A DNA stretch of 64,000 nucleotides from an uncultured Pirellula sp. (GTDB taxonomy: Bacteria; Planctomycetota; Planctomycetia; Pirellulales; Pirellulaceae). How positions within the stretch are numbered: position 1 is the first letter of the stretch; each line of letters opens with the position of its first letter. Positions 5,958-28,222 of this stretch are shown here, one piece after another. The notes below the pieces were generated by a model, which saw nothing but the letters and a program-made list of their open reading frames with translations, did not search any database and had not been told where the DNA came from. The position numbers and the translations under genes are program-made. The stretch is from positions 46 through 64,045 of the forward strand of contig CAYMXM010000001.1 in the NCBI GenBank assembly GCA_964394065.1. Reading direction: 5' to 3'.

Positions 5958-6836
5958 ATGTTTCTGGCGACCGTAGTCGACCAGATCGAGACGGAATGCG
6001 ATTTGGATTACACCACGATTGGACTCTATGATCGGGCAGTGAGGAAGTTTTCGGAGTTCATAGGAAAGCCCGCAGAAGATGTAGATCTGGAGCGAGAAAG
6101 CCTGAACAAGTTCATCCAGCACATCCAGTCGTCTAGATCCAACACGACGGCATCGAACTATCGCCGTGGCCTATGTCGAGTCTGGAATTACCTCACCGAA
6201 TTTCACGACAAACCTGCCTACGAAATCCGTAGATTGCGTCGTCCGAAATCAGAAGACACGCCAGTGATTGCATGGTCGACGCAAGACGTATCTGCTATTC
6301 TCAACGCATCAAAAACGCTGGTTGGAACCCTCAAAATCGGCGTCGAGGCTAGCAGCTTCTTTCACGCGATGATTTGGGTCGCGTACGATACCGGCTTAAG
6401 ACCGAGCGATATCTTCCGAATCACCTGGGAGCAAGTGAGCCTACCCCAAAGGTGTATAACGCTTGTCCAAAACAAGACAGGCAAGCCGCATGTCGTTTTC
6501 ATGCGTGATGCAACGATCGCGGCACTTTCGGATATCAGACTTCCGAGCAGAGAGCGGGTGTTTCCCGTAACGTGGGGCTGCACGCGTCGGTGGATGGAAA
6601 AGATCTTCACGTCAGCGGCAGAATATGGGTTCGTTCGAGTTGCGGGGAAAAATCTTGGTACACTTAGAAAGTCGAATGCGACTCAAGTTTACATTGAGCA
6701 CGGAGAGTCGGCAGCAGCGGAATCCCTCGGTCACACAAGCGGTACCAGGATCGTGCGAAAGCACTACATAGACCATCGCGCTCTTCGCAAGTACTCCGTA
6801 CCAACGAATCCACATGACAACCAAAAAAGAGATTGA
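5958..6836 (+). CDS. int: Tyrosine recombinase/integrase 1 (att-proximal)
   Basis: YDTGLRPSD (Arg I), GTLRKS (Arg II), LGHTS and KHY (Tyr); AGAGGGGA RBS; adjacent to att. Confidence 0.9.
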   Translation: MFLATVVDQIETECDLDYTTIGLYDRAVRKFSEFIGKPAEDVDLERESLNKFIQHIQSSRSNTTASNYRRGLCRVWNYLTEFHDKPAYEIRRLRRPKSEDTPVIAWSTQDVSAILNASKTLVGTLKIGVEASSFFHAMIWVAYDTGLRPSDIFRITWEQVSLPQRCITLVQNKTGKPHVVFMRDATIAALSDIRLPSRERVFPVTWGCTRRWMEKIFTSAAEYGFVRVAGKNLGTLRKSNATQVYIEHGESAAAESLGHTSGTRIVRKHYIDHRALRKYSVPTNPHDNQKRD

Positions 6837-7516: not shown

Positions 7517-8707
7517 CTATTCCTCCTCGCACAGCGTTAGGGAGATTGCATAGGGGATTGTTTTATTCTTGCCTGGAATGGTCGTGCAGCCATCACAAAC
7601 AACCTCTTCTGCAAGCCATACCGTTTCATCCGATGTTGGGCCATCTATGCGGTGCAGAGTTGCCGAACAAGGCAGGTCGTCGCAGTCAAAACATTCGCTT
7701 TCCCAAGTCGCTTCGATCGCAGTCGTACCTGCTCCAAATTCACAATCCTCCGTGCCGATCGTCGCTATGCCAGCGCCGCAGCCTCGAGTACCTGAGTAAA
7801 CAGCTATCTCAGTGGAGCCTGTGATTTTCGCCAAATCACAATCTACACCACCTGTCTGAATAGGACCGCCTACGTTATCTCTGAACACCTCCCAGTGCAG
7901 CGTAACTGATTGAGTTACTGCTTCGGGTGGACCGCAATCGCTCTCCGAGTCGAGTTCGCAATCCGTGAATTCCTCATCGATTTCTGAATCTGACCAGTCA
8001 CAAGGCTTGCAGGGAGGATGTGTTGTCGTCGTAGCTGGTTCAACCCAATCTCCATAGATATAGGTTGGCAGCGTCCCGCCGGAAGGTGATTCCCAGTTGC
8101 AGACGACAGTGACCTCGCGATAGCGGCGAAACACTGCTGATTGAGTCGCACCGAATCGCGTTAAACTGTATCGAGCTGCGACGCGAAACTTTACCTTGCC
8201 ATCATCGCAGCAGATGATAGCCGCAGAACTATGCCACCGTTCCTGCTGCCAAACTCTCCAATGATCAACGCCCCTAAAGGAGGATTCATACACCGTTGTC
8301 GATTGCTCGCCGCAGGGAGTATCTACCGGCCCCTCTTCGTCGGACAGGTAGCAAATGCATTGCATGCAGAGAAATGCCCAAGACTTCACGTTGACGTCAC
8401 CAGTGCAGCCGTAACCTGGAGGACACGGAATGATCATATTGATTCCCTCTGGGCTCGACCACGCGCCAGCCACGATACAGTCCGCGATTATCTCTTCGGG
8501 TTCGATCTCGCAAAACGAGGAAAGGCGGCTATCGCACTCTTCAGGGGGAATCGGATCGGGAGCTTCGGGGAATGCCCCCGACATTTCTTTGCCAAATAGA
8601 GAAACCGACCAGCCAGAAATCTCCCAAGCGGGTTCGCACAAACAGCACTCGGCTGGAGGGGGAGGATCGGAGCTGCAGCATCTTTTGCAAGGATAGCCCG
8701 GCATCAC
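7517..8707 (-). CDS. Cysteine-rich acidic tail-end protein (candidate receptor-binding protein)
   Basis: 396 aa with 31 Cys (counted) and no signal peptide; last large gene of the tail module. Confidence 0.75.
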   Translation of the reverse strand: MMPGYPCKRCCSSDPPPPAECCLCEPAWEISGWSVSLFGKEMSGAFPEAPDPIPPEECDSRLSSFCEIEPEEIIADCIVAGAWSSPEGINMIIPCPPGYGCTGDVNVKSWAFLCMQCICYLSDEEGPVDTPCGEQSTTVYESSFRGVDHWRVWQQERWHSSAAIICCDDGKVKFRVAARYSLTRFGATQSAVFRRYREVTVVCNWESPSGGTLPTYIYGDWVEPATTTTHPPCKPCDWSDSEIDEEFTDCELDSESDCGPPEAVTQSVTLHWEVFRDNVGGPIQTGGVDCDLAKITGSTEIAVYSGTRGCGAGIATIGTEDCEFGAGTTAIEATWESECFDCDDLPCSATLHRIDGPTSDETVWLAEEVVCDGCTTIPGKNKTIPYAISLTLCEEE

Positions 8708-9747
8708 TCTTCCTCTGGCTCTTCTTCGGGGACGTCGCAGTCAACTTGGTAAAGCTCCCACTGTTCGGCAGCCCAGTTGTACTCAGCCCTGGCAGTCGCA
8801 TCGGTTGAGGCAGCCCATTTGTGAGAGTTCTTTGCCTCTACCTCACCGGCAGTGCGTATAGCCTCGTTCAAATATCCATCGATCCCCTCAACGTAATGCA
8901 GTGTTACGTCCGAATCCCCCTCGCCAAAGTCCCCATATACCTTGCCCTTCACGCGAAATGCTTGCCGATCAATCGATTCGATGAAGTAGCGATCTGCAAT
9001 GGCATCGTAGGTAAGGTCAACCTTTGCATCCACGAATCCGCACAGCCGTTTTGGGTTATCTACGTTTAGATAGTCGGGTCCCTCTTCTGGAGTCGTAAGC
9101 GGAGGTGTGATGTCGTTCGGCCATTGCGTGTAGACCTTCGACGGAATCACGTCTACCGTAAGAGTGTCTGGGTTCAACTTCGATTTCAAACTAGCAAGAA
9201 TGTGAGCGGCAGGTTGCTGAATCTCGACAACGATCCATTCCCCGTTTTGCATGACCGCAAAACCTCGCGAGCCGATTCGACCTCTTACTCGCCCAACGCA
9301 CTTAACAACGATCGCCGAACCTACTGAGCCGTCCGGGTTGAGAATGGTTGCGGTCGCCGTGGCGATAGCGTTAAATGCTCCGAATGCTGGAACCGAGGTG
9401 AGGACAAAAGCAGTACCTTCAACGCCACCACCTTCTCCCCGATCGTGCACGCAAATACGTCCATCGATCTCGATGAGCAGCACGGCTTTATTTCCGTCAA
9501 CGGCCGCTCCTCGATTCCAGGCGAGTATTTCGTAGGAGTCTTCCCAGCCCGTTGCGGTAGGGACTTGGACGAAGACCATCCCCGTACCATTGGCTGGTAA
9601 TCCTGCGGGTTTCGTTCTGCCGAACTTCGGCTTAAAGCCTCGACGTTGCAGAGATTGGACGAGGTGTTGTCCACCAGCACCCTCGATCATCCCGATCAAC
9701 AGATCCGCGTCCGTTCGGCCGAATCCAACAATATCCCCGTTCTGCAT
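8704..9747 (-). CDS. Putative tail tip/baseplate-hub protein
   Basis: Position two genes after the tape measure gene; beta-rich composition; translational coupling. Confidence 0.6.
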   Translation of the reverse strand: MQNGDIVGFGRTDADLLIGMIEGAGGQHLVQSLQRRGFKPKFGRTKPAGLPANGTGMVFVQVPTATGWEDSYEILAWNRGAAVDGNKAVLLIEIDGRICVHDRGEGGGVEGTAFVLTSVPAFGAFNAIATATATILNPDGSVGSAIVVKCVGRVRGRIGSRGFAVMQNGEWIVVEIQQPAAHILASLKSKLNPDTLTVDVIPSKVYTQWPNDITPPLTTPEEGPDYLNVDNPKRLCGFVDAKVDLTYDAIADRYFIESIDRQAFRVKGKVYGDFGEGDSDVTLHYVEGIDGYLNEAIRTAGEVEAKNSHKWAASTDATARAEYNWAAEQWELYQVDCDVPEEEPEEE

Positions 9748-9754
9748 AGCCAGA

Positions 9755-10585
9755 CTACCTTAGGAACGAGAACGAAATCTCGCGGTGCGATTTGAATTCC
9801 AAGACGTCGGGATCTGCGCTATCCGGTTTTGCAGTGCCGTCAGGATTGAGTGCCACAATCTTGTCCGTAGGGTGTCTCACTCCCGATATCTTGTGGCTGT
9901 ACCCCATGTCGAGAGGTCGGTTCAGCCACGTATCTTGCTTGTAGGCCACCGAGTAATTGATCCGAACCAGGGAGTGTCCGAAGAAGAAGCCACGTTCGAA
10001 ACTGGTAACCGACAATTTGAGCGTCCGCGCCGCGAAGCCTCGATGCGATGCGGAATTGATGGTGTCGTTTCGATCGCCGATTTCAACATCGGTAATCGCT
10101 GCAGGTTCATACTGAAAGAAGTCGTAAACGATAATAGGGCGTTGCAGAATAAGGGGCTCGGGAAACTTGTCCCCTGCCGAGTTGAGGTAAGGACGCCGAG
10201 GACTTGAGAAGTCCTTGTAGAGAACCTCTGGGTAACTCTCAACTTTCCCCGAATAGACTGGAACCCAAGTGGTCGGATCCGGATCTCCATCCGTTTCTTG
10301 CTTCTCCGACTCCGTCGAGAAATCGGCGTCGACGAACCAGACATAGGGGGAGCCCTCATCCTGCTTCGGATCAAGACCGGTACAGATACACTGGTCATCG
10401 GTATCGGGAATCGTCGTGAGCATGACCCGCGGGAGTCCCACTGTGGCCAGGACGTTCAGCACTGACTCGTTGCGTTGATCCGACAAAACAACGTAACGGC
10501 GACGTTCGGTGTAGACGACATTGGCCCCGCTCTTCCGAACAGAACCACCCTTGCCCTTCTGAACACCCTTCAAAACCGTTGCCAC
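9755..10585 (-). CDS. Putative distal tail protein
   Basis: Directly follows the tape measure gene with stop/start overlap. Confidence 0.65.
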   Translation of the reverse strand: MATVLKGVQKGKGGSVRKSGANVVYTERRRYVVLSDQRNESVLNVLATVGLPRVMLTTIPDTDDQCICTGLDPKQDEGSPYVWFVDADFSTESEKQETDGDPDPTTWVPVYSGKVESYPEVLYKDFSSPRRPYLNSAGDKFPEPLILQRPIIVYDFFQYEPAAITDVEIGDRNDTINSASHRGFAARTLKLSVTSFERGFFFGHSLVRINYSVAYKQDTWLNRPLDMGYSHKISGVRHPTDKIVALNPDGTAKPDSADPDVLEFKSHREISFSFLR

Positions 10586-16723: not shown

Positions 16724-18199
16724 TTACGCCTGGGTCAGCTTCTTGACTGGGCAAGGTGCATTATTGGTCCAACGTTGGAGGCGACCGTCGAACCCTTGGT
16801 AGCCCAAGAATCCAGTATGCAACGTCTCAGCGAAACGTTCGGTGAGTTTTTGCACCAAAACATTTCCCACCTCACGCGCCTTGTAGTACCCGTAGTCACC
16901 GTAGAGCATGGTGATATTGGTGGTCGCGATCACGTTTTGCATGTACTGGTTGTAGATGATTCCCTGACCGTTCAACGTGTCGGGAATTCCATCTTTCAAG
17001 CCAGACGCCCAGAGGAAGCGTCCGGTGGTATCCTTGAGCAATCGAATCGATTTGATGACTGCGTCGTGAGCCATGTACATCCCGTTCGCTCGATAATGCG
17101 GATCCACCGAATGCTGTAGGTTGATCGTATCGTCCGCACTGATGGCTGCAGCGACCGCAGAGGTCACCCCCGCCGCCGCTTGAACAACGATGCCACCAGG
17201 TTGCGTTGTGCCGTTTCCGAGTGTCGCTCGTTTGAGTTTGATTCTCGCCAGACGTTGTCCGAGCATCTCCGCGACAAGCAAGTCAACGTTCGGTAACGAG
17301 TCACGAGTGAGCTGTAGGGATACCTTGATAAACCCCGATGTGAAGTCGTAAGCTCCCAGCGTCAACTGCTCCAGGGCAGCGTCGGGTTGTGCCAGCGCAT
17401 TGATATCAGCTCCTTCACCGATCTGCTGGCCTTCATTAGCGGTGTCATCACCAACCGGCCATTTCATTTGCTCGCCGGTTTCGGTGCGGATCGTATCAAC
17501 GAACGCAAAGAAGGGGCTCGTAGCGAGCATCGCCATCTCGATGGTATTGATGAAGGTGATCGGAACCAATTCAGCACCGGTTCCCGCACCACCTTTTGAC
17601 ATGCTTCGTTGTTGCTCACCGAGCTTTTCTTCAAGGATCGCGTGGTTATAGACGCGTGCCGCTCGCTGAAAACGTTTGTAGTCTTCGGTTGGTAGGAGCT
17701 TGGCACGAACCACCGAATCACGAGGGTCAGCGTGGAGACGCTGGCACGCGTCCCGCATGCGAGAGTCCAGCAGCCCCGGATTGATGTGAGCAACAATGAA
17801 CGCTCGCATGAACTGTCGGCCGTCGGCTTGCCGCTGTGCAAAGCTACGTGCTTCATCGAGGTCTTCGAAATCCTCCCCGTAAGCCTGTCCGCTTGCTGGG
17901 TTGATGTCATCGAGGCCGGGTTTCTGGCGACCGTGGTGGGTCGATCGACCTTCCCAATCGTTGACCTCAGTGATTCGCGAGTTGATCGATTCGTCATCCT
18001 CGATCGACTTGATCTCGTTCCGCAGAGTGTCGTACTCAGAGTTTACCTTCTCCCACGCGGTTCGCGTCTCATCGGGCCAAAGGGCAATAGCGGGATCTTT
18101 TTCCGCGGCCTTCTTCCGTTCGTTGTAGGCAGTTCCTTGCTTCTTGATTTCAGTAGCAAGCTCCCCTGCCTTCTTTCGTTTCTCCGCTAACACGCTCAT
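16724..18199 (-). CDS. Major capsid protein, HK97 fold with N-terminal coiled-coil scaffold
   Basis: GAELVPITF, VSLQLTRDS, DTTGRFLW, LNGQGI and YGDYGYY motifs. Confidence 0.95.
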   Translation of the reverse strand: MSVLAEKRKKAGELATEIKKQGTAYNERKKAAEKDPAIALWPDETRTAWEKVNSEYDTLRNEIKSIEDDESINSRITEVNDWEGRSTHHGRQKPGLDDINPASGQAYGEDFEDLDEARSFAQRQADGRQFMRAFIVAHINPGLLDSRMRDACQRLHADPRDSVVRAKLLPTEDYKRFQRAARVYNHAILEEKLGEQQRSMSKGGAGTGAELVPITFINTIEMAMLATSPFFAFVDTIRTETGEQMKWPVGDDTANEGQQIGEGADINALAQPDAALEQLTLGAYDFTSGFIKVSLQLTRDSLPNVDLLVAEMLGQRLARIKLKRATLGNGTTQPGGIVVQAAAGVTSAVAAAISADDTINLQHSVDPHYRANGMYMAHDAVIKSIRLLKDTTGRFLWASGLKDGIPDTLNGQGIIYNQYMQNVIATTNITMLYGDYGYYKAREVGNVLVQKLTERFAETLHTGFLGYQGFDGRLQRWTNNAPCPVKKLTQA

Positions 18200-18383: not shown

Positions 18384-18959
18384 CTAGACAGGTGCCGTGG
18401 CCGCGTAGGTGAAGAGAATGGTTCCGCTGTCCAAGTCAGTGTTGGAGGAGTTCCGTTCCCGCAGGGCAAAGAAGATCGATCGTTCGACCTTGGTGTAGAT
18501 CCGTGGAATCACGACGGAATAGGACGAACCAGTAATGACGGGTGAAAGCGTAGCAATATGCTTTTGATTCTTGTCGCACAGAACGAAGTCGCAAACGGGG
18601 AGCGTTATCGGATTCAAAGCCCCGTCGAGAACCGTTCGCGTGATTGGAACATCAGCATCGATCGTCACCGTGATCGTGGCAGCCGAGTAGTTTCGATCGT
18701 TCTCACCTTGGCTTGGGAGAACCGCCACTGTCTGAATGTGAAAGACTTGAAGCCAATCGTCCCAGCTCTCGGGCTCTGTGGCTCCCCGAAACAACCGCCA
18801 AACCGTAGCGATCGCAGGGTCGACCTCCACCGCGTAAGATCCCGTTGCCACCTCGATCGGGACACGTTTCGTTTCCTCCCAGTCAGCCAATGAAGAGCCC
18901 TCGGAAAGGACGTAGAAATCCGTGACTCCTGAATCTGCGGTGAAGGTTAGGGTTTCCAT
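18384..18959 (-). CDS. Hypothetical beta-rich virion-associated protein
   Basis: 191-aa ORF in the insert between the prohead protease and capsid genes. Confidence 0.65.
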   Translation of the reverse strand: METLTFTADSGVTDFYVLSEGSSLADWEETKRVPIEVATGSYAVEVDPAIATVWRLFRGATEPESWDDWLQVFHIQTVAVLPSQGENDRNYSAATITVTIDADVPITRTVLDGALNPITLPVCDFVLCDKNQKHIATLSPVITGSSYSVVIPRIYTKVERSIFFALRERNSSNTDLDSGTILFTYAATAPV

Positions 18960-18971
18960 GGTACGTCACGT

Positions 18972-19109
18972 CTATTGGGAACTGGAGAAACTTGAAAGAT
19001 CTACCTCGGTGAGTTAGTATCCCCCACCAAGCGTTGTAACTGTTACGTTGATCTCGCTGATGTAGTCACTCAGCAAGGAGAAACCGGTCGCTCCCCAGTG
19101 CGTACCGAG
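18972..19109 (-). pseudogene. Diverged relic of the 3' end of the Ig-protease gene
   Basis: 46 codons align without gaps to 19153-19290 (27/45 aa identical), with one internal stop. Confidence 0.85.
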
Positions 19110-19152: not shown

Positions 19153-20298
19153 CTATGGGAAACTCGGGTAGCTCGACAGATCGACCTCGGTGAGCTGGTA
19201 TCCTCCGCCGAGCGTGCTCATTGCCGCGTCGATCTCGCTGATCAAGTCAGCAATCATTGCAAAGCTTGTTGCTCCTGCATGTACTCCGAGTAGGAGCAAC
19301 TCACTTCCAAGCACACACCAAATCGGCGATCCCGAATCGCCCCCAACGATCGGCTCAGCGTAAGGGGCAAGCTCCGCACGCGTTGACGCTGTGTGAATTA
19401 TTGTTACGTGGGGCGCGGCCGACAGAACGGTATGCGCCAGAACTTGAGCATCCTGGTCGCCGCAGATAATCTCCAGGCCAGCGAAAGAAATATATTCTCG
19501 CCAGTTTTCAGGAAGCACCTTGCACGGAGATATGCTTGCGGGTAAATCGCTATCAAGCAAAGCAATTCGAAGATCGCCAATGCCGATGAACTGTGATGCA
19601 ATAATTGTACGTTCAACCACTTGATTATTTAATGCGACAAACAGCACGACTGACCCGATTGATGGATAAGCATGATTGGCAACTACTAGATGCCTTTTCG
19701 AAACAGCGCATCCATTGAATCGCTGGCCTGTCGTGCTGTTTCGGATAGGCCATGCTGTCAGATCGCGAGATACCCAACAGTTTGCGTTACGCGAGTAGAT
19801 TGCAAGATCGTGAGAGATCGTGCTGTACACAGATTTCGATTTTCCTGGCGCCGCCATCGAAATTGTTGTGTCGTTGATTTCCTTGCCGAGCGTCCCATCT
19901 ATATAGCGTGAAAAAGTATCGACGGTTTCCCCTCCGGTGATCGAACCGTTGTGCACTGTAGTCCTCTTGGCCGGTAGAATGCCTACGACGATGATTACGC
20001 CCCCACTTGCGTGCGTTGTTATTCGTCCAGTCGCATCAACGCTTGCTACCACGGGGTTCGTCGACGAGTAGTATTCGACGAAATTTTCGGCGTTACCCTC
20101 TAGCGTAATTTGCCCATGCACTGTTTTGATTGCAGTTACGACTCTCGTGTAAACCGAGTCTCGCACAGTAATCTCAACAGGAGATGTTCCACCTTCCTCT
20201 ACCACGATCGGGGTATAGTTGATGATGAAATCGGTCGTGGATGGCGAAATCTGTAATGCTCCGGGGGTAATCTGGATCATATTTTCGTCGCCCACCAA
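19153..20298 (-). CDS. Ig-like (Big_2) domain plus trypsin-like serine protease
   Basis: YYSSTNPVVASVDATGRIT (Big_2); triad motifs VVANHAY, GDLRIALL and GGDSGSPI. Confidence 0.85.
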   Translation of the reverse strand: MVGDENMIQITPGALQISPSTTDFIINYTPIVVEEGGTSPVEITVRDSVYTRVVTAIKTVHGQITLEGNAENFVEYYSSTNPVVASVDATGRITTHASGGVIIVVGILPAKRTTVHNGSITGGETVDTFSRYIDGTLGKEINDTTISMAAPGKSKSVYSTISHDLAIYSRNANCWVSRDLTAWPIRNSTTGQRFNGCAVSKRHLVVANHAYPSIGSVVLFVALNNQVVERTIIASQFIGIGDLRIALLDSDLPASISPCKVLPENWREYISFAGLEIICGDQDAQVLAHTVLSAAPHVTIIHTASTRAELAPYAEPIVGGDSGSPIWCVLGSELLLLGVHAGATSFAMIADLISEIDAAMSTLGGGYQLTEVDLSSYPSFP

Positions 20299-21194
20299 CC
20301 AGTAGTACCTTTGAAGATCTGAGCTTTTTCATCCATAGCTAGAACAATATCGGATCCAGTGGTCGTGTAGAGACGATTAGCTGCGTCACTTGAAACGGAA
20401 TTATTCGTGAGTGTGAGCGAGACAGACATGCCATTGTGGACAATGAACGATCTGGGAAAAGCGCCTGCCTCCATTTCTGTTGCAGAAAATCCAGTGATTG
20501 TTCGAGGTGTAGCTCCTCCGGTAACGCGATAGAGGCTTCCACTCGCAGGCCAAATCAAATTGTCCCAGCTTGGGATCGCACCTGACGGGATACTTCTAGG
20601 GCTGAACCACTTGGCAGACAGAGAGACACCTCCAGAAGTCACTCCATTTCCAACGCGAATATCAGATACGCCCTGCGTGCTGTATGTCACGATAGCGATC
20701 TCGCCAAGATTAAGAACGATGGCATCAATCGTAGCCTTGTCTCCGATTCTCACCGATACAATTGCGTTCAGTACTCCACTTGCGTCAAGTGCCGGTGGAT
20801 TGAGTGGTGTATCGAGCTGAGCCTTGAGCACTGCATCAATCGCATCAACCTTCATCGCGAGCGCGGATACCATAGCCTCTAGATCGGCTTTGCTTGCAAG
20901 TGCTATCGATGTTGCATCGCTGATCGGTTTGTTGGCGTCGGATGTGTTGTCGACTGCACCGAGCCCTACGTCGGATTTGGAAAGACTGCTTATCGCATTG
21001 CTAACCTCTCCCGAAGCAACCTCGCCTGCTATTTCCGCAACTCTTTCCTCGTCGGTGCCCCCGATCATCGCCACATTGCCATTTTCGTCCACCGTTACGA
21101 ATCCAGCCTCAGTGGCAGCAAAGCGAATATGATCCTTCTTCGCTGCGTCGATTGCTCCATTCTCAATCTCGATCTGAATTCCTGCTTTTACCAT
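20277..21194 (-). CDS. Fibre/decoration-like protein
   Basis: DVGLGAVDNTSDANKPIS motif, common in phage fibre proteins, followed by a coiled coil and a beta-rich C-terminus. Confidence 0.65.
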   Translation of the reverse strand: MVKAGIQIEIENGAIDAAKKDHIRFAATEAGFVTVDENGNVAMIGGTDEERVAEIAGEVASGEVSNAISSLSKSDVGLGAVDNTSDANKPISDATSIALASKADLEAMVSALAMKVDAIDAVLKAQLDTPLNPPALDASGVLNAIVSVRIGDKATIDAIVLNLGEIAIVTYSTQGVSDIRVGNGVTSGGVSLSAKWFSPRSIPSGAIPSWDNLIWPASGSLYRVTGGATPRTITGFSATEMEAGAFPRSFIVHNGMSVSLTLTNNSVSSDAANRLYTTTGSDIVLAMDEKAQIFKGTTGWWATKI

Positions 21195-21418
21195 AAGATC
21201 AACTCCGATTCCGAGCTTAACACGATTTCAGATCCGGCATCAAGCACGAGGTCGCTTGGTGCGAAGATTGTGCGGCGAGGGGGAATTACGTATGACTCCC
21301 CCTCAACAAGGTGGTTTGGAGCGGGAATCCCAAAATTTAGATCGTCCCGGACCTCTTGGATGTCGTTGTTAAGCGTATCTTGCGAGACAGCTCGTGGTTG
21401 ACCTGGCGTTACTCCCAT
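21188..21418 (-). CDS. Small hypothetical structural protein
   Basis: 76-aa ORF coupled to the prohead protease gene. Confidence 0.55.
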   Translation of the reverse strand: MGVTPGQPRAVSQDTLNNDIQEVRDDLNFGIPAPNHLVEGESYVIPPRRTIFAPSDLVLDAGSEIVLSSESELILW

Positions 21419-22074
21419 AGGTCAAGCTCCCGTAGTCGCACCGATACGTCCTCCCGAGTTGCTGCAAAACAATTCCGCTCGCGCAGAAGTATTTCGCGTT
21501 CACTCGATTGGATCGATCGACTCGAGGTAGCAGCTTCATACGCTGGAAACGTCACCGGGCCCACGTCGTAGCAGACGCCGATTTCCTTGATCCAACGAAC
21601 ATCGTAGGACTTGCCGTCCTCTTCTTTGATCGTTTCCCAGACTGTGACCGACGGGTAGAAGGAAAAACTGGATCCGGTGACGTCCCCCCGGCTGATCTTC
21701 TCCGCGACGCTCAACCATTGCGGATCGCTGCTCGACTCGTCGCTTTCGTAATACAACCCCACGGCATCGGTGGTGAGGCGACAGGTACCAGCTTCGGTTC
21801 GCCCGAGAACGTAGTTCATGTCGTGATTGAACAAGCAGCGAACGTCTTGCTTCTCGTTGATCACGCGATCGAACGCTCCGGGCATGATCCGCTCGACCAG
21901 GTCATCCCAGAGCCAGTACTCTGTGCTTGGATCGGCAGGGTTGTAGAAGACTGCGCCGTAACCGCGAATGACTTTGGAATCGGACGTCGCGTTCCGCTTC
22001 TGCAACGCCAAACGTCGTTCCCCCGAAGCGGGATTCGAGATTGAGAACCGCCTATGTTGCAACCGCATCGTCAT
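21409..22074 (-). CDS. HK97-type prohead protease
   Basis: RGYGAVF, ERIMPGAF, LFNHD, SSFSF and DVGPVTFPAY motifs. Confidence 0.95.
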   Translation of the reverse strand: MTMRLQHRRFSISNPASGERRLALQKRNATSDSKVIRGYGAVFYNPADPSTEYWLWDDLVERIMPGAFDRVINEKQDVRCLFNHDMNYVLGRTEAGTCRLTTDAVGLYYESDESSSDPQWLSVAEKISRGDVTGSSFSFYPSVTVWETIKEEDGKSYDVRWIKEIGVCYDVGPVTFPAYEAATSSRSIQSSEREILLRERNCFAATREDVSVRLRELDLWE

Positions 22075-26442: not shown

Positions 26443-26938
26443 AAGTCGTATCCTCTTTTACGCGAATGATCGGACTGATGACCCATTCCAGCCATCGCCA
26501 AAATTGGAAGTAGTCAAGAACCGGATTGAGCCAATCGGTTATGACGCAGTAGCGAACCTCGAAAGGACTTCGATGATGTTCGCCATGGTGTCGTGGGCTT
26601 TGTAACAGCCCCGTTTCCTGAAGTGCACGAATGAAGGGGCTACACTTCTGGTGGGCCCAGGCATGTACTTCATTCGCCTGAGAGGCAAAGACGAAAACCC
26701 AGGAGGGATAGATCGCGAAGGCGATCGCAGCCGGGAGGATGGTTGTCCAGTTACGTGTCCAATAATCCCCCTTCAGGAACGCGGCTGGTTGCGCGTGATG
26801 CAAGCTGTTCGGTTTGGCGATGTATTTGCCGATGATTGGCCACTTCTCTTCGAAGTACCGATCCTCGATCCAATGCCAGAAACCTGATAGAAAGTCAGCA
26901 AGCAACCAAGCCACGAGAAGCTCGGTTAGGAAAACCAT
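26432..26938 (-). CDS. CarF/TMEM189/FAD4-family lipid desaturase
   Basis: ADFLSGFWHWIED, LHHAQP, NEVHAWAH, PRHHGEHH, YCVITDWLN and FWRWLE motifs. Confidence 0.88.
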   Translation of the reverse strand: MVFLTELLVAWLLADFLSGFWHWIEDRYFEEKWPIIGKYIAKPNSLHHAQPAAFLKGDYWTRNWTTILPAAIAFAIYPSWVFVFASQANEVHAWAHQKCSPFIRALQETGLLQSPRHHGEHHRSPFEVRYCVITDWLNPVLDYFQFWRWLEWVISPIIRVKEDTTYVS

Positions 26939-28029
26939 TTGCTGAGCTGCCCCCGAAAGACGTAGCCTGCGATTCCTCCCGCAGCGAACCCGACAGCAAG
27001 AACAACTAGGTTCCGAAGCAACGACCCGAAAAACGAGATTACTGGTCGATCGGGCTTATTAGGTCGTAGCAAACCCGTGTCGCCATCGGGCTGTTGAGGC
27101 TCCGGCTTGTTCGGCCGAAGTCGTCCCCCTGTGATGGCGTCCACCAGGTCCTCGTCACCCTGCTCGATATCCTGCGTTGGCCAAGCAGCTCGGTAAAGCG
27201 TTTCCGCGGAATCGGTCGCATCGGCATCGAGGCAACTCACTTCCCTGGCGTGGGGTGGTAAGGGCTCGAGCGACTTAGGGAGTCGACCTTGCAGAGCATT
27301 CAGCACGAACGGCATCGATTGTCCCAGTCCTTCACCGCCCCCACCCCATGTGAGAAGACCAACGACCTCGGGACCATTGGAGGTGTAGTCGATGACGCTT
27401 GAACCCGATCGGCCACCGATCGCCTCGGGATGCCAAGTTAGAATCTGCCCCTCGGATCGATTCAACTTGAGCACCTGAAGGGAAGGCCATTCGCATCGAG
27501 GACACCCATAGGTGGTGATCAATGCGGATGTGTCCGGTTGTCGGTTCGCGATGGGGACCGGCTTCACGTCGGTACCGAATCCTTCTGCAGCTCGTAAGAT
27601 CGCGAAGTCGATCGACATACCTCGACCGTAACCACTTGCGACGATCGATGCGGTGGATCGCTGACTCCGGCCGTTGAGTTCCCAACGTTCGACATTGACG
27701 ACTCGTCCCTTGGTGGTCCCTGCTACGTGGGCATTGGTCAAGATAAGAGACCGCCCATTTGCATCTTTGCCAACGATAGTACCGCTTCCGCAAACGCCAC
27801 TTACCGTAACCCGAACCGTGGCCCGAATTACCTGCTCGAACGCATCGCCACCAGCGCCGGCTTCTGCTGGGCTCACCGAGCTGGTCAACCCTTGCGAGTC
27901 GGCTTGGTTCAGCGTGTGAATGTGAATTCCCTCGACGGGGAGACAACCGTTCGGTCCACAGACCACTTGAGCCATTGCTGGCGTGACGAAGAGCGTCACG
28001 AGAGCACTGAGTACTGCAAAGCGCAGCAT
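26926..28029 (-). CDS. Secreted trypsin-like serine protease with C-terminal membrane anchor
   Basis: Signal peptide MLRFAVLSALVTLFVTPAMA; triad motifs LTNAHV, IDFAIL and GGRSGSSV; C-terminal TM helix LVVLAVGFAAGGIAGYVF. Confidence 0.88.
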   Translation of the reverse strand: MLRFAVLSALVTLFVTPAMAQVVCGPNGCLPVEGIHIHTLNQADSQGLTSSVSPAEAGAGGDAFEQVIRATVRVTVSGVCGSGTIVGKDANGRSLILTNAHVAGTTKGRVVNVERWELNGRSQRSTASIVASGYGRGMSIDFAILRAAEGFGTDVKPVPIANRQPDTSALITTYGCPRCEWPSLQVLKLNRSEGQILTWHPEAIGGRSGSSVIDYTSNGPEVVGLLTWGGGGEGLGQSMPFVLNALQGRLPKSLEPLPPHAREVSCLDADATDSAETLYRAAWPTQDIEQGDEDLVDAITGGRLRPNKPEPQQPDGDTGLLRPNKPDRPVISFFGSLLRNLVVLAVGFAAGGIAGYVFRGQLSKWFS

Positions 28030-28033
28030 CTTC

Positions 28034-28222
28034 TCACCTCTTTCTTGGAGACAGACTTTTAGAGATTCTCCAGACAGTGACGCGACTGATGCCAAACTTT
28101 TTGGCGATGTCCTTCGTGCGAACTCCAGATCTTTTCGCAACCGCGACTCGCATTCGGTCTTGGCCGCTTAGCAATTTTTTTTGCTGTCCGTTCTTGAAAC
28201 GCTGGTACTGTCTTGATCTCAC
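28034..28222 (-). CDS. Small helix-turn-helix protein
   Basis: GVRTKDIAKKFGISRVTVWRI HTH. Confidence 0.75.
   Translation of the reverse strand: MRSRQYQRFKNGQQKKLLSGQDRMRVAVAKRSGVRTKDIAKKFGISRVTVWRISKSLSPRKR

What the first reader, a model, noticed from the sequence alone, without database searches (positions are those of the whole stretch)
19153..20298. Ig-domain chymotrypsin-fold protease in the head module, in addition to the prohead protease
Seen: a Big_2-like domain followed by a complete His/Asp/Ser triad (ANHA, GDL, GDSGSP), with no signal peptide. The phage already encodes an HK97-type maturation protease. Inference: a virion-displayed protease that digests host surface or matrix protein during adsorption, a proteinaceous analogue of depolymerases, or one that processes the fibre proteins.
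Basis: partly seen in the sequence, partly recalled or inferred. Interest (0 to 1): 0.65.

Follow-up and report, generated by a model that had tools for sequence, protein, structure and literature searches.

The report
Fibre-partnered serine protease in planctomycete prophage
A prophage of a Pirellulales planctomycete carries, translationally coupled to a tail-fibre-like gene, a leaderless antibody-like-domain protein ending in a complete chymotrypsin-type serine protease; it belongs to a large family that no database searched here names, and is most likely a protein-cutting counterpart of the sugar-cutting enzymes phages carry on their fibres, though no activity or virion location has been shown.

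Summary
Window 19153-20280 (-) encodes a 375-aa protein with no signal peptide. It has N-terminal Ig-like (Big_2-type) sandwiches and a chymotrypsin-fold domain (AF2 pLDDT 93; Foldseek to chymotrypsin/plasmin, E about 1e-7). His203, Asp236 and Ser316 are invariant in 41 homologues. Pfam, NCBIfam and PHROGs do not cover the protease domain, yet 2,410 representative clusters match it.

"Head module" is true only of position. Eight of nine related Pirellulales prophages have the capsid gene directly after the S78 prohead protease. Here a 3.2-kb block sits between them. The closest relatives fill the same slot with an unrelated Kelch-propeller fibre cassette. A decayed 3' end of an earlier protease allele lies just after the gene.

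The gene overlaps (ATGA) the stop of a fibre-like gene. That fibre-then-protease pair recurs in 56 of 101 viral copies, sometimes in tandem, and other proteins fuse the domain to fibre shafts or lectin-like modules. In genomes, the family's C-terminal motif was confirmed only in Planctomycetota/Verrucomicrobiota-group assemblies (16 of 16). One nested clade is cellular and has signal peptides.

Best reading (about 0.5): a fibre-docked virion protease that cuts a host surface protein. Main rival: a fibre-maturation protease. Other windows of this scan hold analogous, sequence-unrelated fibre proteases.

The parts
19153..20280 (-). Ig-protease gene (375 aa from ATG 20280; stop codon 19153-19155). 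The ORF listing start, TTG 20298, adds 6 codons and is probably not used.
20227..20280 (-). N-terminal 18 residues. Residues 1-13 are predicted disordered (pLDDT <50). Candidate docking peptide; this is inference only.
19903..20226 (-). Ig-like beta-sandwich region (residues 19-126). The Big_2-type match covers residues 62-97.
19156..19833 (-). Chymotrypsin-fold (PA clan) serine protease domain, residues about 150-375
19672..19674 (-). Catalytic His203 codon (ANHA)
19573..19575 (-). Catalytic Asp236 codon (GDLRIALL)
19333..19335 (-). Catalytic Ser316 codon (GGDSGSP). Asp315 and Gly317 are also invariant.
19156..19212 (-). Family-signature C-terminal tail LGGGYQLTEVDLSSYPSFP (residues 357-375), following the last helix. 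It is the most conserved stretch of the family; its function is unknown.
18972..19094 (-). Relic of an earlier allele: a 123-nt ungapped pseudo-copy of the gene's last 40 codons plus stop (GATGFSLLSDYISEINVTVTTLGGGY*LTEVDLSSFSSSQ*). It has an in-frame TAA and is about 71% identical in nucleotides.
20277..21194 (-). 305-aa fibre-like partner. Residues 55-113 match PHROG tail-fibre and minor-tail families. Residues about 124-195 carry an Mtd_N-type segment shared with the genes upstream of the protease in other phages.
21188..21418 (-). 76-aa ORF at the left edge of the cassette. It overlaps both the S78 stop and the fibre start. Only its first 28 residues are shared with the 51-aa ORF of the closest relatives.
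18384..18959 (-). 191-aa protein of two Ig-like sandwiches, directly upstream of the capsid gene. It is kept (59-65% identity) in relatives whatever cassette they carry.
21409..22074 (-). Peptidase_S78 prohead protease (context, left flank of the slot)
16724..18199 (-). HK97-type major capsid protein with an N-terminal coiled-coil region (context, right flank)

Best explanation
The gene encodes an active chymotrypsin-fold serine protease made in the cytoplasm without a leader, together with the fibre-like protein encoded just upstream. I infer that it is built into the virion as the enzymatic partner of that fibre. Its disordered N-terminal peptide and Ig-like domains would dock and position it, much as a secondary receptor-binding protein docks on a primary one in branched systems. 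On contact with a cell it would cleave a protein of the host surface (an S-layer-like coat, pilus or other anchored surface protein), which lets the phage reach or expose its receptor. It would thus be a proteolytic counterpart of fibre- and spike-borne polysaccharide depolymerases. The fibre-plus-protease pair is a swappable host-range cassette that happens to sit between the prohead protease and capsid genes in this phage lineage.

Shown: fold, invariant triad, absence of a leader, coupling to the fibre gene, recurrence of the pair, fusions, cassette replacement, and restriction to PVC-group genomes.

Inferred: catalytic activity, virion incorporation, docking mode, and substrate.
For: (1) The catalytic machinery is under selection. 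His203, Asp236, Asp315, Ser316 and Gly317 are the only invariant columns in 41 homologues. The AF2 model is confident (pLDDT 93.3) and matches S1 proteases.

(2) The family is large and mainly viral. There are 2,410 representative clusters at E <= 1e-3 and 96 confirmed places in IMG/VR.

(3) Partnership with a fibre.
- ATGA start/stop overlap with the 305-aa fibre-like gene.
- A fibre cluster with the Mtd_N-type segment lies directly upstream in 56 of 101 viral copies, with tandem fibre-protease pairs and one triple. The paralogues share only 32-43% identity.
- Pfam Mtd_N or T4_gp9_10_N matches on upstream neighbours.

(4) Fusions.
- The domain is followed by GH[TSK]H-type fibre sequence in P0004, P0051, P0055 and P0059.
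- The domain lies at the C-terminus behind Big_2, Laminin_G_3, ArabFuran-catal-like, cadherin-like or G8 modules, which are binding modules that a purely internal maturation enzyme would not need.

(5) A nested cellular clade carries signal peptides and TSP3 repeats. One copy lies beside the ribosomal-protein/secY operon. This indicates the domain works outside the cytoplasm.

(6) Slot behaviour typical of host-range genes.
- The block is absent in 8 of 9 related prophages.
- It is replaced by a Kelch-propeller fibre cassette in the closest relatives.
- A relic of an earlier allele lies downstream.

(7) In the one GenBank phage record with a homologue (a podovirus), the gene follows the internal-virion and structural genes.

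(8) The Ig-like part resembles domains of a solved short tail fibre and a Hoc-like capsid protein.

(9) Docking of a secondary enzyme-bearing receptor-binding protein on a primary one is an established design (PMC8262889, PMC13352976; abstracts seen).
Against: - There is no direct evidence of activity, substrate or virion presence.
- The map position is among head genes, so the location on the particle (capsid, neck or tail) is unknown.
- Gene order (fibre, then partner) is also the classic order for fibre plus assembly chaperone.
- In four fusions the protease lies N-terminal to the fibre shaft, which is an unusual place for a distal enzyme.
- The very conserved C-terminal tail could mark a self-processing function.
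- In some large phages the pair lies beside nucleotide-metabolism or replication genes rather than in a recognisable structural block.
- I could not inspect model coordinates, so I cannot say whether the active site is open.
Confidence: 0.5

Rival explanations
1. Fibre-maturation or assembly protease. The protein acts inside the infected cell on its cognate fibre, trimming a folding or chaperone segment or otherwise licensing trimer assembly. It would be a trans-acting analogue of the self-cleaving C-terminal chaperone domains of tailspikes, or a proteolytic version of tail-fibre assembly proteins. It may or may not stay on the fibre.
For: The gene lies immediately downstream of the fibre gene and is translationally coupled to it, which is the canonical position of fibre assembly genes. 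There is a one-to-one pairing in tandem arrays, with both partners diverged, suggesting cognate specificity. The protein has no signal peptide. In many proteins the domain is the C-terminal end of a long chain.
Against: Relatives carry lectin-like, cadherin-like and Ig-like targeting modules. A nested clade carries signal peptides and has no fibre-cluster gene next to it. Four fusions place the domain before the fibre shaft, not after it. No similarity to Peptidase_S74 or to tail-fibre assembly families was reported by Pfam or PHROGs.
Confidence: 0.2
2. Soluble, non-virion enzyme. The protease is released at lysis, or leaks from lysogens, and degrades proteinaceous matrix or surface proteins of neighbouring cells. 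This could aid progeny spread or alter the lysogen's surface, without being part of the particle.
For: Free forms of phage depolymerases are known (my own knowledge). The intact triad and the signal-peptide-bearing cellular relatives point to an extracellular substrate. In some large phages the gene is not in a recognisable structural block.
Against: The tight coupling and recurrent pairing or fusion with fibre proteins is hard to explain for a free enzyme. In this prophage the gene sits in the late structural operon between the S78 and capsid genes.
Confidence: 0.12
3. Envelope-breaching or lysis enzyme. The protease cuts peptidoglycan peptide stems or an envelope protein from within, at entry or exit. 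Some chymotrypsin-fold bacteriolytic proteases of the alpha-lytic protease group are reported to do this (my own knowledge).
For: The catalytic site is intact.
Against: The protein has no export signal or membrane segment. It shows no detectable sequence relationship to the exported Trypsin_2 protease of the putative lysis block. The pairing with fibres and Ig or lectin modules points outward. It is absent from most related prophages, so it is not a core entry or exit function.
Confidence: 0.05
4. Binding module only. The protease fold is used as an adhesin, and catalysis is irrelevant.
For: Protease-fold binding proteins exist; hepatocyte growth factor beta chain is among the Foldseek matches.
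Against: The triad, Asp315 (equivalent to Asp194) and the Gly-Asp-Ser-Gly motif are invariant across sequences of 24-43% identity. Non-catalytic homologues normally lose these residues.
Confidence: 0.03

Closest known systems
Clan PA, family S1 chymotrypsin/trypsin-type serine proteases (nearest solved folds: chymotrypsin(ogen), plasmin catalytic domain, tryptase, trypsin)
   Same: Double beta-barrel fold (Foldseek E about 1e-7, TM-score normalised to target length 0.5-0.66 against single-domain targets). His-Asp-Ser order. TAAH-like, D-x-x-L-L and G-D-S-G-x-P motifs. The Asp before the Ser is conserved.
   Different: No Pfam or NCBIfam protease model reaches its cut-off on the query; of 41 homologues, single members gave sub-cut-off matches to protease models, the best being PF00089 Trypsin at E 5e-4. 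The family has its own motifs (Y-x-R-N-x-x-C-W, S-P-R-H) and a highly conserved about 19-residue C-terminal tail, LGGGYQLTxVDLSxF. There is an N-terminal Ig-like module and no leader or obvious pro-peptide. The family is mostly phage-borne.
Branched receptor-binding protein systems with enzymatic secondary RBPs (Klebsiella phages KP32/K11/KP34; PMC8262889, PMC13352976)
   Same: A primary fibre or anchor gene followed by a second gene for an enzyme-bearing protein with a short N-terminal segment. The cassettes are modular and swappable, and some phages carry several pairs.
   Different: The known enzymes are beta-helix polysaccharide depolymerases; here the enzyme is a serine protease. Docking is not demonstrated. 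A weak T4_gp9_10_N match was seen on only one homologue's fibre partner. In this phage the cassette lies among head genes.
Tail fibre plus downstream assembly/adhesin gene pairs (lambda stf-tfa, P2 H-G, Mu S-U, T4 gp37-gp38)
   Same: The gene order and tight coupling match, and the pairs are duplicated or exchanged as units.
   Different: There is no sequence similarity to these assembly proteins. The partner here is a 375-aa two-module enzyme with an invariant catalytic triad.
Self-cleaving C-terminal intramolecular chaperone domains of tailspikes and fibres (Peptidase_S74; K1F endosialidase, T5 pb1)
   Same: A serine peptidase linked with fibre proteins; in many relatives the domain sits at the C-terminus of a long protein.
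   Different: The fold and catalytic residues differ: S74 uses a Ser-Lys dyad (my own knowledge). Here the protease is a separate gene, in some fusions it lies N-terminal to the shaft, and a nested clade of cellular homologues carries signal peptides.
T4 Hoc-type Ig-like virion surface proteins
   Same: The N-terminal Big_2-type domains resemble those of a Hoc-like protein (7x30_P) and a short tail fibre (9cuy_c). The map position is next to the capsid gene.
   Different: Hoc-type proteins carry no enzyme domain, and capsid binding is not shown here.

Membership tests
Clan PA / family S1 serine proteases | Two-beta-barrel chymotrypsin fold | tested here: met
   AF2 pLDDT 93.3. Foldseek gives 315 PDB matches at E <= 1e-3; the 50 listed are S1-family folds, with TM-score normalised to target length of 0.5-0.66 against single-domain targets.
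Clan PA / family S1 serine proteases | Catalytic triad in the order His, Asp, Ser, with a G-D-S-G-x-P nucleophile motif | tested here: met
   His203, Asp236 and Ser316 are invariant in 41 homologues, and GGDSGSP is present.
Clan PA / family S1 serine proteases | Match to a curated S1 sequence model (PF00089 Trypsin, PF13365 Trypsin_2) above threshold | tested here: not met
   The query has no protease match. One of 41 members matches Trypsin at E 5e-4 and one matches Trypsin_2 at 0.025. NCBIfam gives none.
Clan PA / family S1 serine proteases | Measured peptidase activity | not testable with these tools
   Needs an enzyme assay.
Virion-associated depolymerase-type receptor-binding proteins | Presence in the virion, attached to the tail or fibre | not testable with these tools
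   The support is only indirect: coupling to, pairing with and fusion to fibre genes.
Virion-associated depolymerase-type receptor-binding proteins | Encoded in a modular, exchangeable cassette with fibre or anchor genes | tested here: met
   The slot is empty in 8 of 9 relatives, holds a different fibre cassette in the closest relatives, and is followed by a relic allele. A fibre gene lies upstream in 56 of 101 copies.
Virion-associated depolymerase-type receptor-binding proteins | Degrades a host surface polymer | not testable with these tools
   The substrate is unknown.
Peptidase_S74 intramolecular chaperone | S74 fold and sequence, positioned as the C-terminal domain of the fibre polypeptide | tested here: not met
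   There is no S74 match in Pfam, the fold is chymotrypsin-like, and it is a separate gene.
Caudovirus prohead protease (S78/S77/S80) | Herpesvirus-protease-like fold and sequence model | tested here: not met
   The S78 model matches the neighbouring 221-aa gene, not this one.
Tail fibre assembly proteins | Sequence membership in a tail-assembly family | tested here: not met
   Pfam and PHROGs give no match for the query. Only the gene position resembles these proteins.
Big_2 bacterial Ig-like domain | Match to PF02368 above the gathering score | tested here: inconclusive
   The query scores 17.2 bits against a 22.8-bit cut-off. Five of 41 relatives match at E <= 0.1, the best at 8.9e-9. The family profile matches Big_2-type domains in the PDB, and the model shows beta-sandwiches.

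The most novel reading that the evidence does not exclude
These proteins are the first family of proteolytic 'depolymerases' on phage fibres. They would be a receptor-binding module, specific to phages of the Planctomycetota/Verrucomicrobiota group, that cuts protein rather than sugar to get through the host's proteinaceous surface. The target may be exosortase-sorted PEP-CTERM surface proteins: 5 of the 6 cellular relatives have a PEP-CTERM gene directly downstream or one small ORF away, and the host of this prophage has an exosortase and at least 18 PEP-CTERM domains.
Probability: 0.35. Interest if true: 0.78.

Novelty: new variant of a known kind. Interest (0 to 1): 0.6.

Why it matters
Phage host-range enzymes characterised so far mostly cut sugars (capsules, O-antigens, exopolysaccharide) or peptidoglycan. 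How phages cross protein surface layers is largely unknown: a recent structure of an S-layer-penetrating phage reports no enzymatic domains for penetration and calls the problem open (PMC11948020, abstract seen).

This is a large, unannotated family of intact serine proteases tied to fibre genes. Its signature motif was confirmed in genomes only in a bacterial group long noted for protein-rich envelopes (my own knowledge). It offers a concrete candidate for a protein-cutting adsorption step.

It also gives a handle on phage-host recognition in planctomycetes and verrucomicrobia, for which few phage systems appear to have been studied (my own impression; the paper searches turned up none).

The family could also yield surface-specific proteases, and it would improve annotation of about 2,400 protein clusters that currently have no name.

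Tried and rejected
- Sequence search of the PDB with the protein and with the family profile found no protease relatives, only Ig-like domains.
- PHROGs and NCBIfam gave nothing for the protein.
- The phage GenBank collection gave a single weak hit, 22.5% identity, to an unnamed gene of an uncultured podovirus.
- The first genome scan with the 41-sequence alignment failed for lack of a conserved stretch. It worked with a 12-sequence alignment.
- An exact search for the fibre motif VDNTSDxxKP in related loci found it only in the window, so fibre partners were compared by clustering instead.
- I tested whether the Kelch-fibre cassette of the closest relatives is related to this one. It is not, apart from the first 28 residues of the small leading ORF.
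- I tested whether the protein is related to the prophage's other (Trypsin_2) protease. It is not detectably related.
- I folded the 191-aa neighbour hoping for a capsid-decoration or fibre-chaperone fold. It gave only two generic Ig-like sandwiches.
- PHROG annotation of neighbours in large IMG/VR phages gave ribonucleotide reductase and helicase, not structural genes, so context there is uninformative.
- Seven paper searches found no description of the family, one further search supplied only the branched-RBP comparison, and the one paper opened did not describe it either.
- I rejected the prohead-protease duplicate idea (different fold and family) and the exported-enzyme idea (no leader).
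- I could not examine model coordinates, so the position of the conserved C-terminal tail relative to Ser316 is unresolved.
Full report
**What is at the coordinates**

The ORF 19153..20298 on the minus strand exists. The database copy of the protein, P0001, is 375 aa and starts at the ATG at 20280. That ATG overlaps the TGA stop of the upstream 305-aa gene as ATGA. I therefore take 19153-20280 as the gene, and residue numbers below use the 375-aa form.

The start/stop overlaps run from the S78 prohead protease through the 76-aa ORF and the 305-aa gene to this gene. It is therefore part of the late structural operon.

The N-terminus has no hydrophobic leader: the highest mean Kyte-Doolittle value for a 15-residue window is 0.55.

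**Fold and active site**

- Pfam reports only a weak Big_2 match (E 0.005, below the cut-off) and no protease family.
- PHROGs and NCBIfam report nothing.
- A search of 5.8 billion proteins found 41 relatives.
- An exhaustive search of representatives found 2,410 clusters at E <= 1e-3 and 1,434 at E <= 1e-10.

In the alignment of the 41 relatives (24-43% identity), the only invariant columns are His203, Asp236, Asp315, Ser316 and Gly317. These sit in the motifs ANH-A, GD-LRIALL and GG-DSG-SP, the classic positions of His57, Asp102 and Asp194-Ser195-Gly196 of chymotrypsin (my own knowledge of the S1 family).

The AlphaFold model built on this alignment has mean pLDDT 93.3 and pTM 0.82:
- a disordered tip (residues 1-13);
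- beta-sandwich strands over residues 19-126;
- a helix (131-142);
- a beta-rich domain to residue 341;
- a last helix (343-357);
- a 19-residue tail.

Foldseek against the PDB gives 315 matches at E <= 1e-3. The 50 listed are S1-family folds (chymotrypsin(ogen), plasmin, tryptase, trypsin), with TM-score normalised to target length of 0.5-0.66 against single-domain targets. In the viral structure library the only close match is an uncharacterised protein of an uncultured tailed phage (2e-19). Most of the named remaining matches are RNA-virus proteases and polyproteins, and many rows have no name.

The family profile matches Big_2-type domains of a solved phage short tail fibre (9cuy_c, 3e-6) and a Hoc-like capsid protein (7x30_P, 5e-5).

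This is an Ig-like module plus a complete chymotrypsin-fold serine protease, distinct from the S78 prohead protease at 21409-22074 (E 9.6e-34). It has no detectable relationship to the prophage's third serine protease, the Trypsin_2 gene at 26926-28140.

**The setting: an integrated prophage of a Pirellulales bacterium**

- The window is flanked by host-type genes: a Ser/Thr kinase, TrpD, a sulfatase, a secretin and a permease. A phage integrase lies at 5958-6836.
- Minus-strand order: TerL, portal, S78 protease, 76 aa, 305 aa, this gene, 191 aa, capsid, connector, tail completion, major tail protein, tape measure.
- A genome that the tool ranks in the same order as the window's genome (G051) has a contig of exactly the length of JBGSSS010000078.1, titled 'Pirellulales bacterium'. 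This places the host in Pirellulales.

**'Head module' is only a map position**

I fetched the region upstream of capsid homologues in 13 related Pirellulales loci.
- Nine show the TerL-portal-S78-capsid order.
- In eight of those nine the capsid gene follows the protease within about 20-280 bp.
- None has a relative of the 305-, 381- or 191-aa proteins there.

In the window the same junction holds 3.2 kb.

The closest relatives of this phage (metagenome contigs L080-L082) have the same gene order, from the Trypsin_2 and desaturase genes through to the tail, and a 191-aa homologue at about 65% identity. In exactly this slot they carry a 51-aa ORF, a 698-aa protein and a 177-aa ORF. The 698-aa protein has an N-terminus matching tail-fibre, tailspike and hyaluronidase families, with Mtd_N and Kelch-propeller matches. 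These genes are unrelated to the window's, apart from the first 28 residues of the small ORF.

Directly after the stop codon of the protease gene lies a 123-nt ungapped pseudo-copy of its own last 40 codons. It is about 71% identical in nucleotides, has an in-frame TAA, and ends at a TAG in register (18972-19094). This is the scar of an earlier protease allele that was replaced.

The slot thus turns over the way host-range genes do.

**The protease is a partner of fibres**

The 305-aa upstream protein matches 16 PHROG families, of which six are annotated as tail fibre or minor tail protein, through residues 55-113. It shares an Mtd_N-type segment (residues about 124-195) with the genes upstream of the protease in other phages.

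In 80 IMG/VR loci plus earlier phage loci I found 101 family members.
- The same fibre cluster is the immediately upstream gene in 56 of them.
- Several phages carry fibre-protease-fibre-protease arrays, and one carries three pairs.
- The paralogues are only 32-43% identical, and their fibres 33-48%.

Some proteins fuse the partners.
- P0004, P0051, P0055 and P0059 have a short N-terminus, the protease domain ending in LGGGYQLTxVDLxxY, then GH[TSK]H-type sequence and a long C-terminal part.
- Others place the domain at the C-terminus behind Big_2, Laminin_G_3, ArabFuran-catal-like, cadherin-like or G8 modules.

In a different Pirellulales prophage with lambda-type head genes, the pair lies between the capsid gene and the tail genes. 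In the single GenBank phage with a relative, a podovirus, it follows the internal-virion and structural genes.

**Distribution**

A scan of one genome for each of 185,579 prokaryotic species with the family's C-terminal motif gave 20 stretches. Sixteen were confirmed, and all 16 are in Planctomycetota (Pirellulales, Sedimentisphaerales) or the Verrucomicrobiota group (Opitutales-type, Prosthecobacter, Verrucomicrobiae, Kiritimatiellia, Lentisphaerales).

Within Pirellulales the family is sporadic: strong matches in 4 of the 300 other genomes searched.

Six of the genome copies are not phage genes. They encode 388-1,480-aa proteins, and those examined (L012, L015, L018, L020) start with signal-peptide-like N-termini.
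- Five of the six contain TSP3 calcium-binding repeats; the sixth was not scanned.
- The protease domain is at the C-terminus.
- One lies right after what I recognise by eye as the ribosomal-protein/secY operon.
- Five of the six have, directly downstream or one small ORF away, small proteins of one cluster. The two cluster members tested carry PEP-CTERM sorting signals.

In a FastTree of 92 protease domains (midpoint-rooted, support values not examined), these six form one clade nested among phage sequences. The family therefore looks primarily viral, with one cellular offshoot that carries signal peptides.

The window's own genome has an exosortase (94.7 bits) and at least 18 PEP-CTERM domains. 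This is compatible with such proteins being targets, but it is no more than a lead.

**Most likely mechanism**

I judge with high confidence (about 0.9) that this is a catalytically competent serine protease.

My best reading (about 0.5) has four parts:
- it is made with its fibre partner and docks on the fibre, by its disordered tip and/or Ig-like domains;
- it travels on the virion;
- it cuts a host surface protein during adsorption;
- the pair acts as an exchangeable host-range cassette.

The design parallels branched receptor-binding systems, in which a secondary, enzyme-bearing protein docks on a primary one (PMC8262889, PMC13352976), but with a protease in place of a glycan depolymerase.

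The main rival (about 0.2) is a fibre-maturation or assembly protease, which the gene order and one-to-one pairing fit equally well. The lectin-like and Ig-like targeting modules, the signal-peptide-bearing clade and the fusions with the domain ahead of the shaft argue against it.

Lesser rivals are a soluble enzyme released at lysis (0.12), an envelope or peptidoglycan-peptide hydrolase (0.05) and a non-catalytic binder (0.03).

Where on the particle the pair sits (capsid, neck or tail) cannot be decided here.

**Comparison with what is known**

By fold and active site it belongs to clan PA, S1-like. It fails the curated sequence models, so I treat it as an undescribed subfamily with its own motifs and its conserved C-terminal tail. 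It is not a prohead protease, not an S74 chaperone domain, and not a known tail-fibre assembly protein (membership table).

Seven text searches and one paper reading found no description of it. One of the searches supplied only the branched-RBP comparison. A recent structure of an S-layer-penetrating phage states that it has no enzymatic domains for penetration and that the problem is open (PMC11948020).

Other windows of this scan have produced analogous chymotrypsin-fold proteases tied to phage fibres or capsid anchors (e1-5091305, e1-5091304, e1-2371159, e1-816529, e1-3475790). The sequence look-up found no look-alike of this gene in other windows. I did not test those notes and use them only as a sign that the theme recurs.

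**Verdict**

The finding is a real feature. It is a new variant of a known kind: a fibre-associated phage enzyme that is proteolytic instead of glycan-cleaving. It is also an unannotated subfamily of a known fold. Interest is 0.6. The fold and context are solid, while the function is inferred and directly testable.

Noticed in passing
window 18972-19094 (-): A decayed copy of the last 40 codons of the protease gene sits directly after its stop codon. It is 123 nt, ungapped, about 71% identical, and has an in-frame TAA. It is the scar of an earlier allele replaced by recombination.
   Followed up: yes
L080 6128-8906 (also L081, L082) versus window 19153-21418: The closest relatives of this phage carry a 51-aa ORF, a 698-aa Mtd_N/Kelch-propeller fibre and a 177-aa ORF in exactly the slot that holds the 76-aa, 305-aa fibre and protease genes here. 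The junction between prohead protease and capsid is a cassette-exchange site in this lineage.
   Followed up: yes
window 18384-18959 (-): The 191-aa protein is predicted as two Ig-like sandwiches (pLDDT 77.8). It is conserved directly upstream of the capsid gene in relatives whatever cassette they carry. A distant homologue (E 6.6e-8) lies two genes after a protease-fibre fusion in an unrelated IMG/VR phage (L089 8254-8841). It is possibly a Hoc-like surface protein or part of the fibre module.
   Followed up: partly
L020 4695-9375; L016 17-3118; L013 88-2356; L015 203-5562; L018 3104-5753: Cellular relatives in Kiritimatiellae, Lentisphaerales and Verrucomicrobiota encode large proteins (signal-peptide-like starts in the four examined by eye; TSP3 repeats in the four here that were scanned) that end in this protease domain. 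A small protein of one cluster lies directly downstream or one small ORF away; both cluster members tested carry PEP-CTERM signals. This may be a protease-substrate or protease-inhibitor pair on the cell surface.
   Followed up: partly
L141 172-6146; L085 4335-9665; L137, L138, L140, L142, L099: Large uncultured phages carry two or three tandem fibre-protease gene pairs with 32-43% identity between protease paralogues. This is reminiscent of phages that carry several depolymerase spikes.
   Followed up: partly
L023 8001-8126 (Pirellulaceae bacterium SH449, CP197409.1): Only a 42-residue match to the family's C-terminal tail (55% identity), inside a 69-aa ORF, is present in this complete genome. 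It may be another relic of a lost protease cassette.
   Followed up: no
window 21188-21418, 20277-21194, 19153-20280 (-): Start and stop codons overlap at each junction from the S78 protease through the 76-aa ORF and the fibre to the protease (ATGGGAGTAA, ATGGTAA, ATGA). This implies translational coupling of the inserted cassette to the head operon.
   Followed up: yes
window 7517-10585 (-): The three proteins after the tape measure (276, 347 and 396 aa) have no Pfam or PHROG match, so the distal tail of this phage is uncharacterised. No long fibre gene is recognisable in the tail block, so the fibre in the head-gene slot may be the phage's only fibre.
   Followed up: partly
L015 4711-5130: A 139-aa fragment of the protease domain lies between two PEP-CTERM genes downstream of the full-length cellular protease gene in a Lentisphaerales assembly. 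The contig has masked bases nearby.
   Followed up: no
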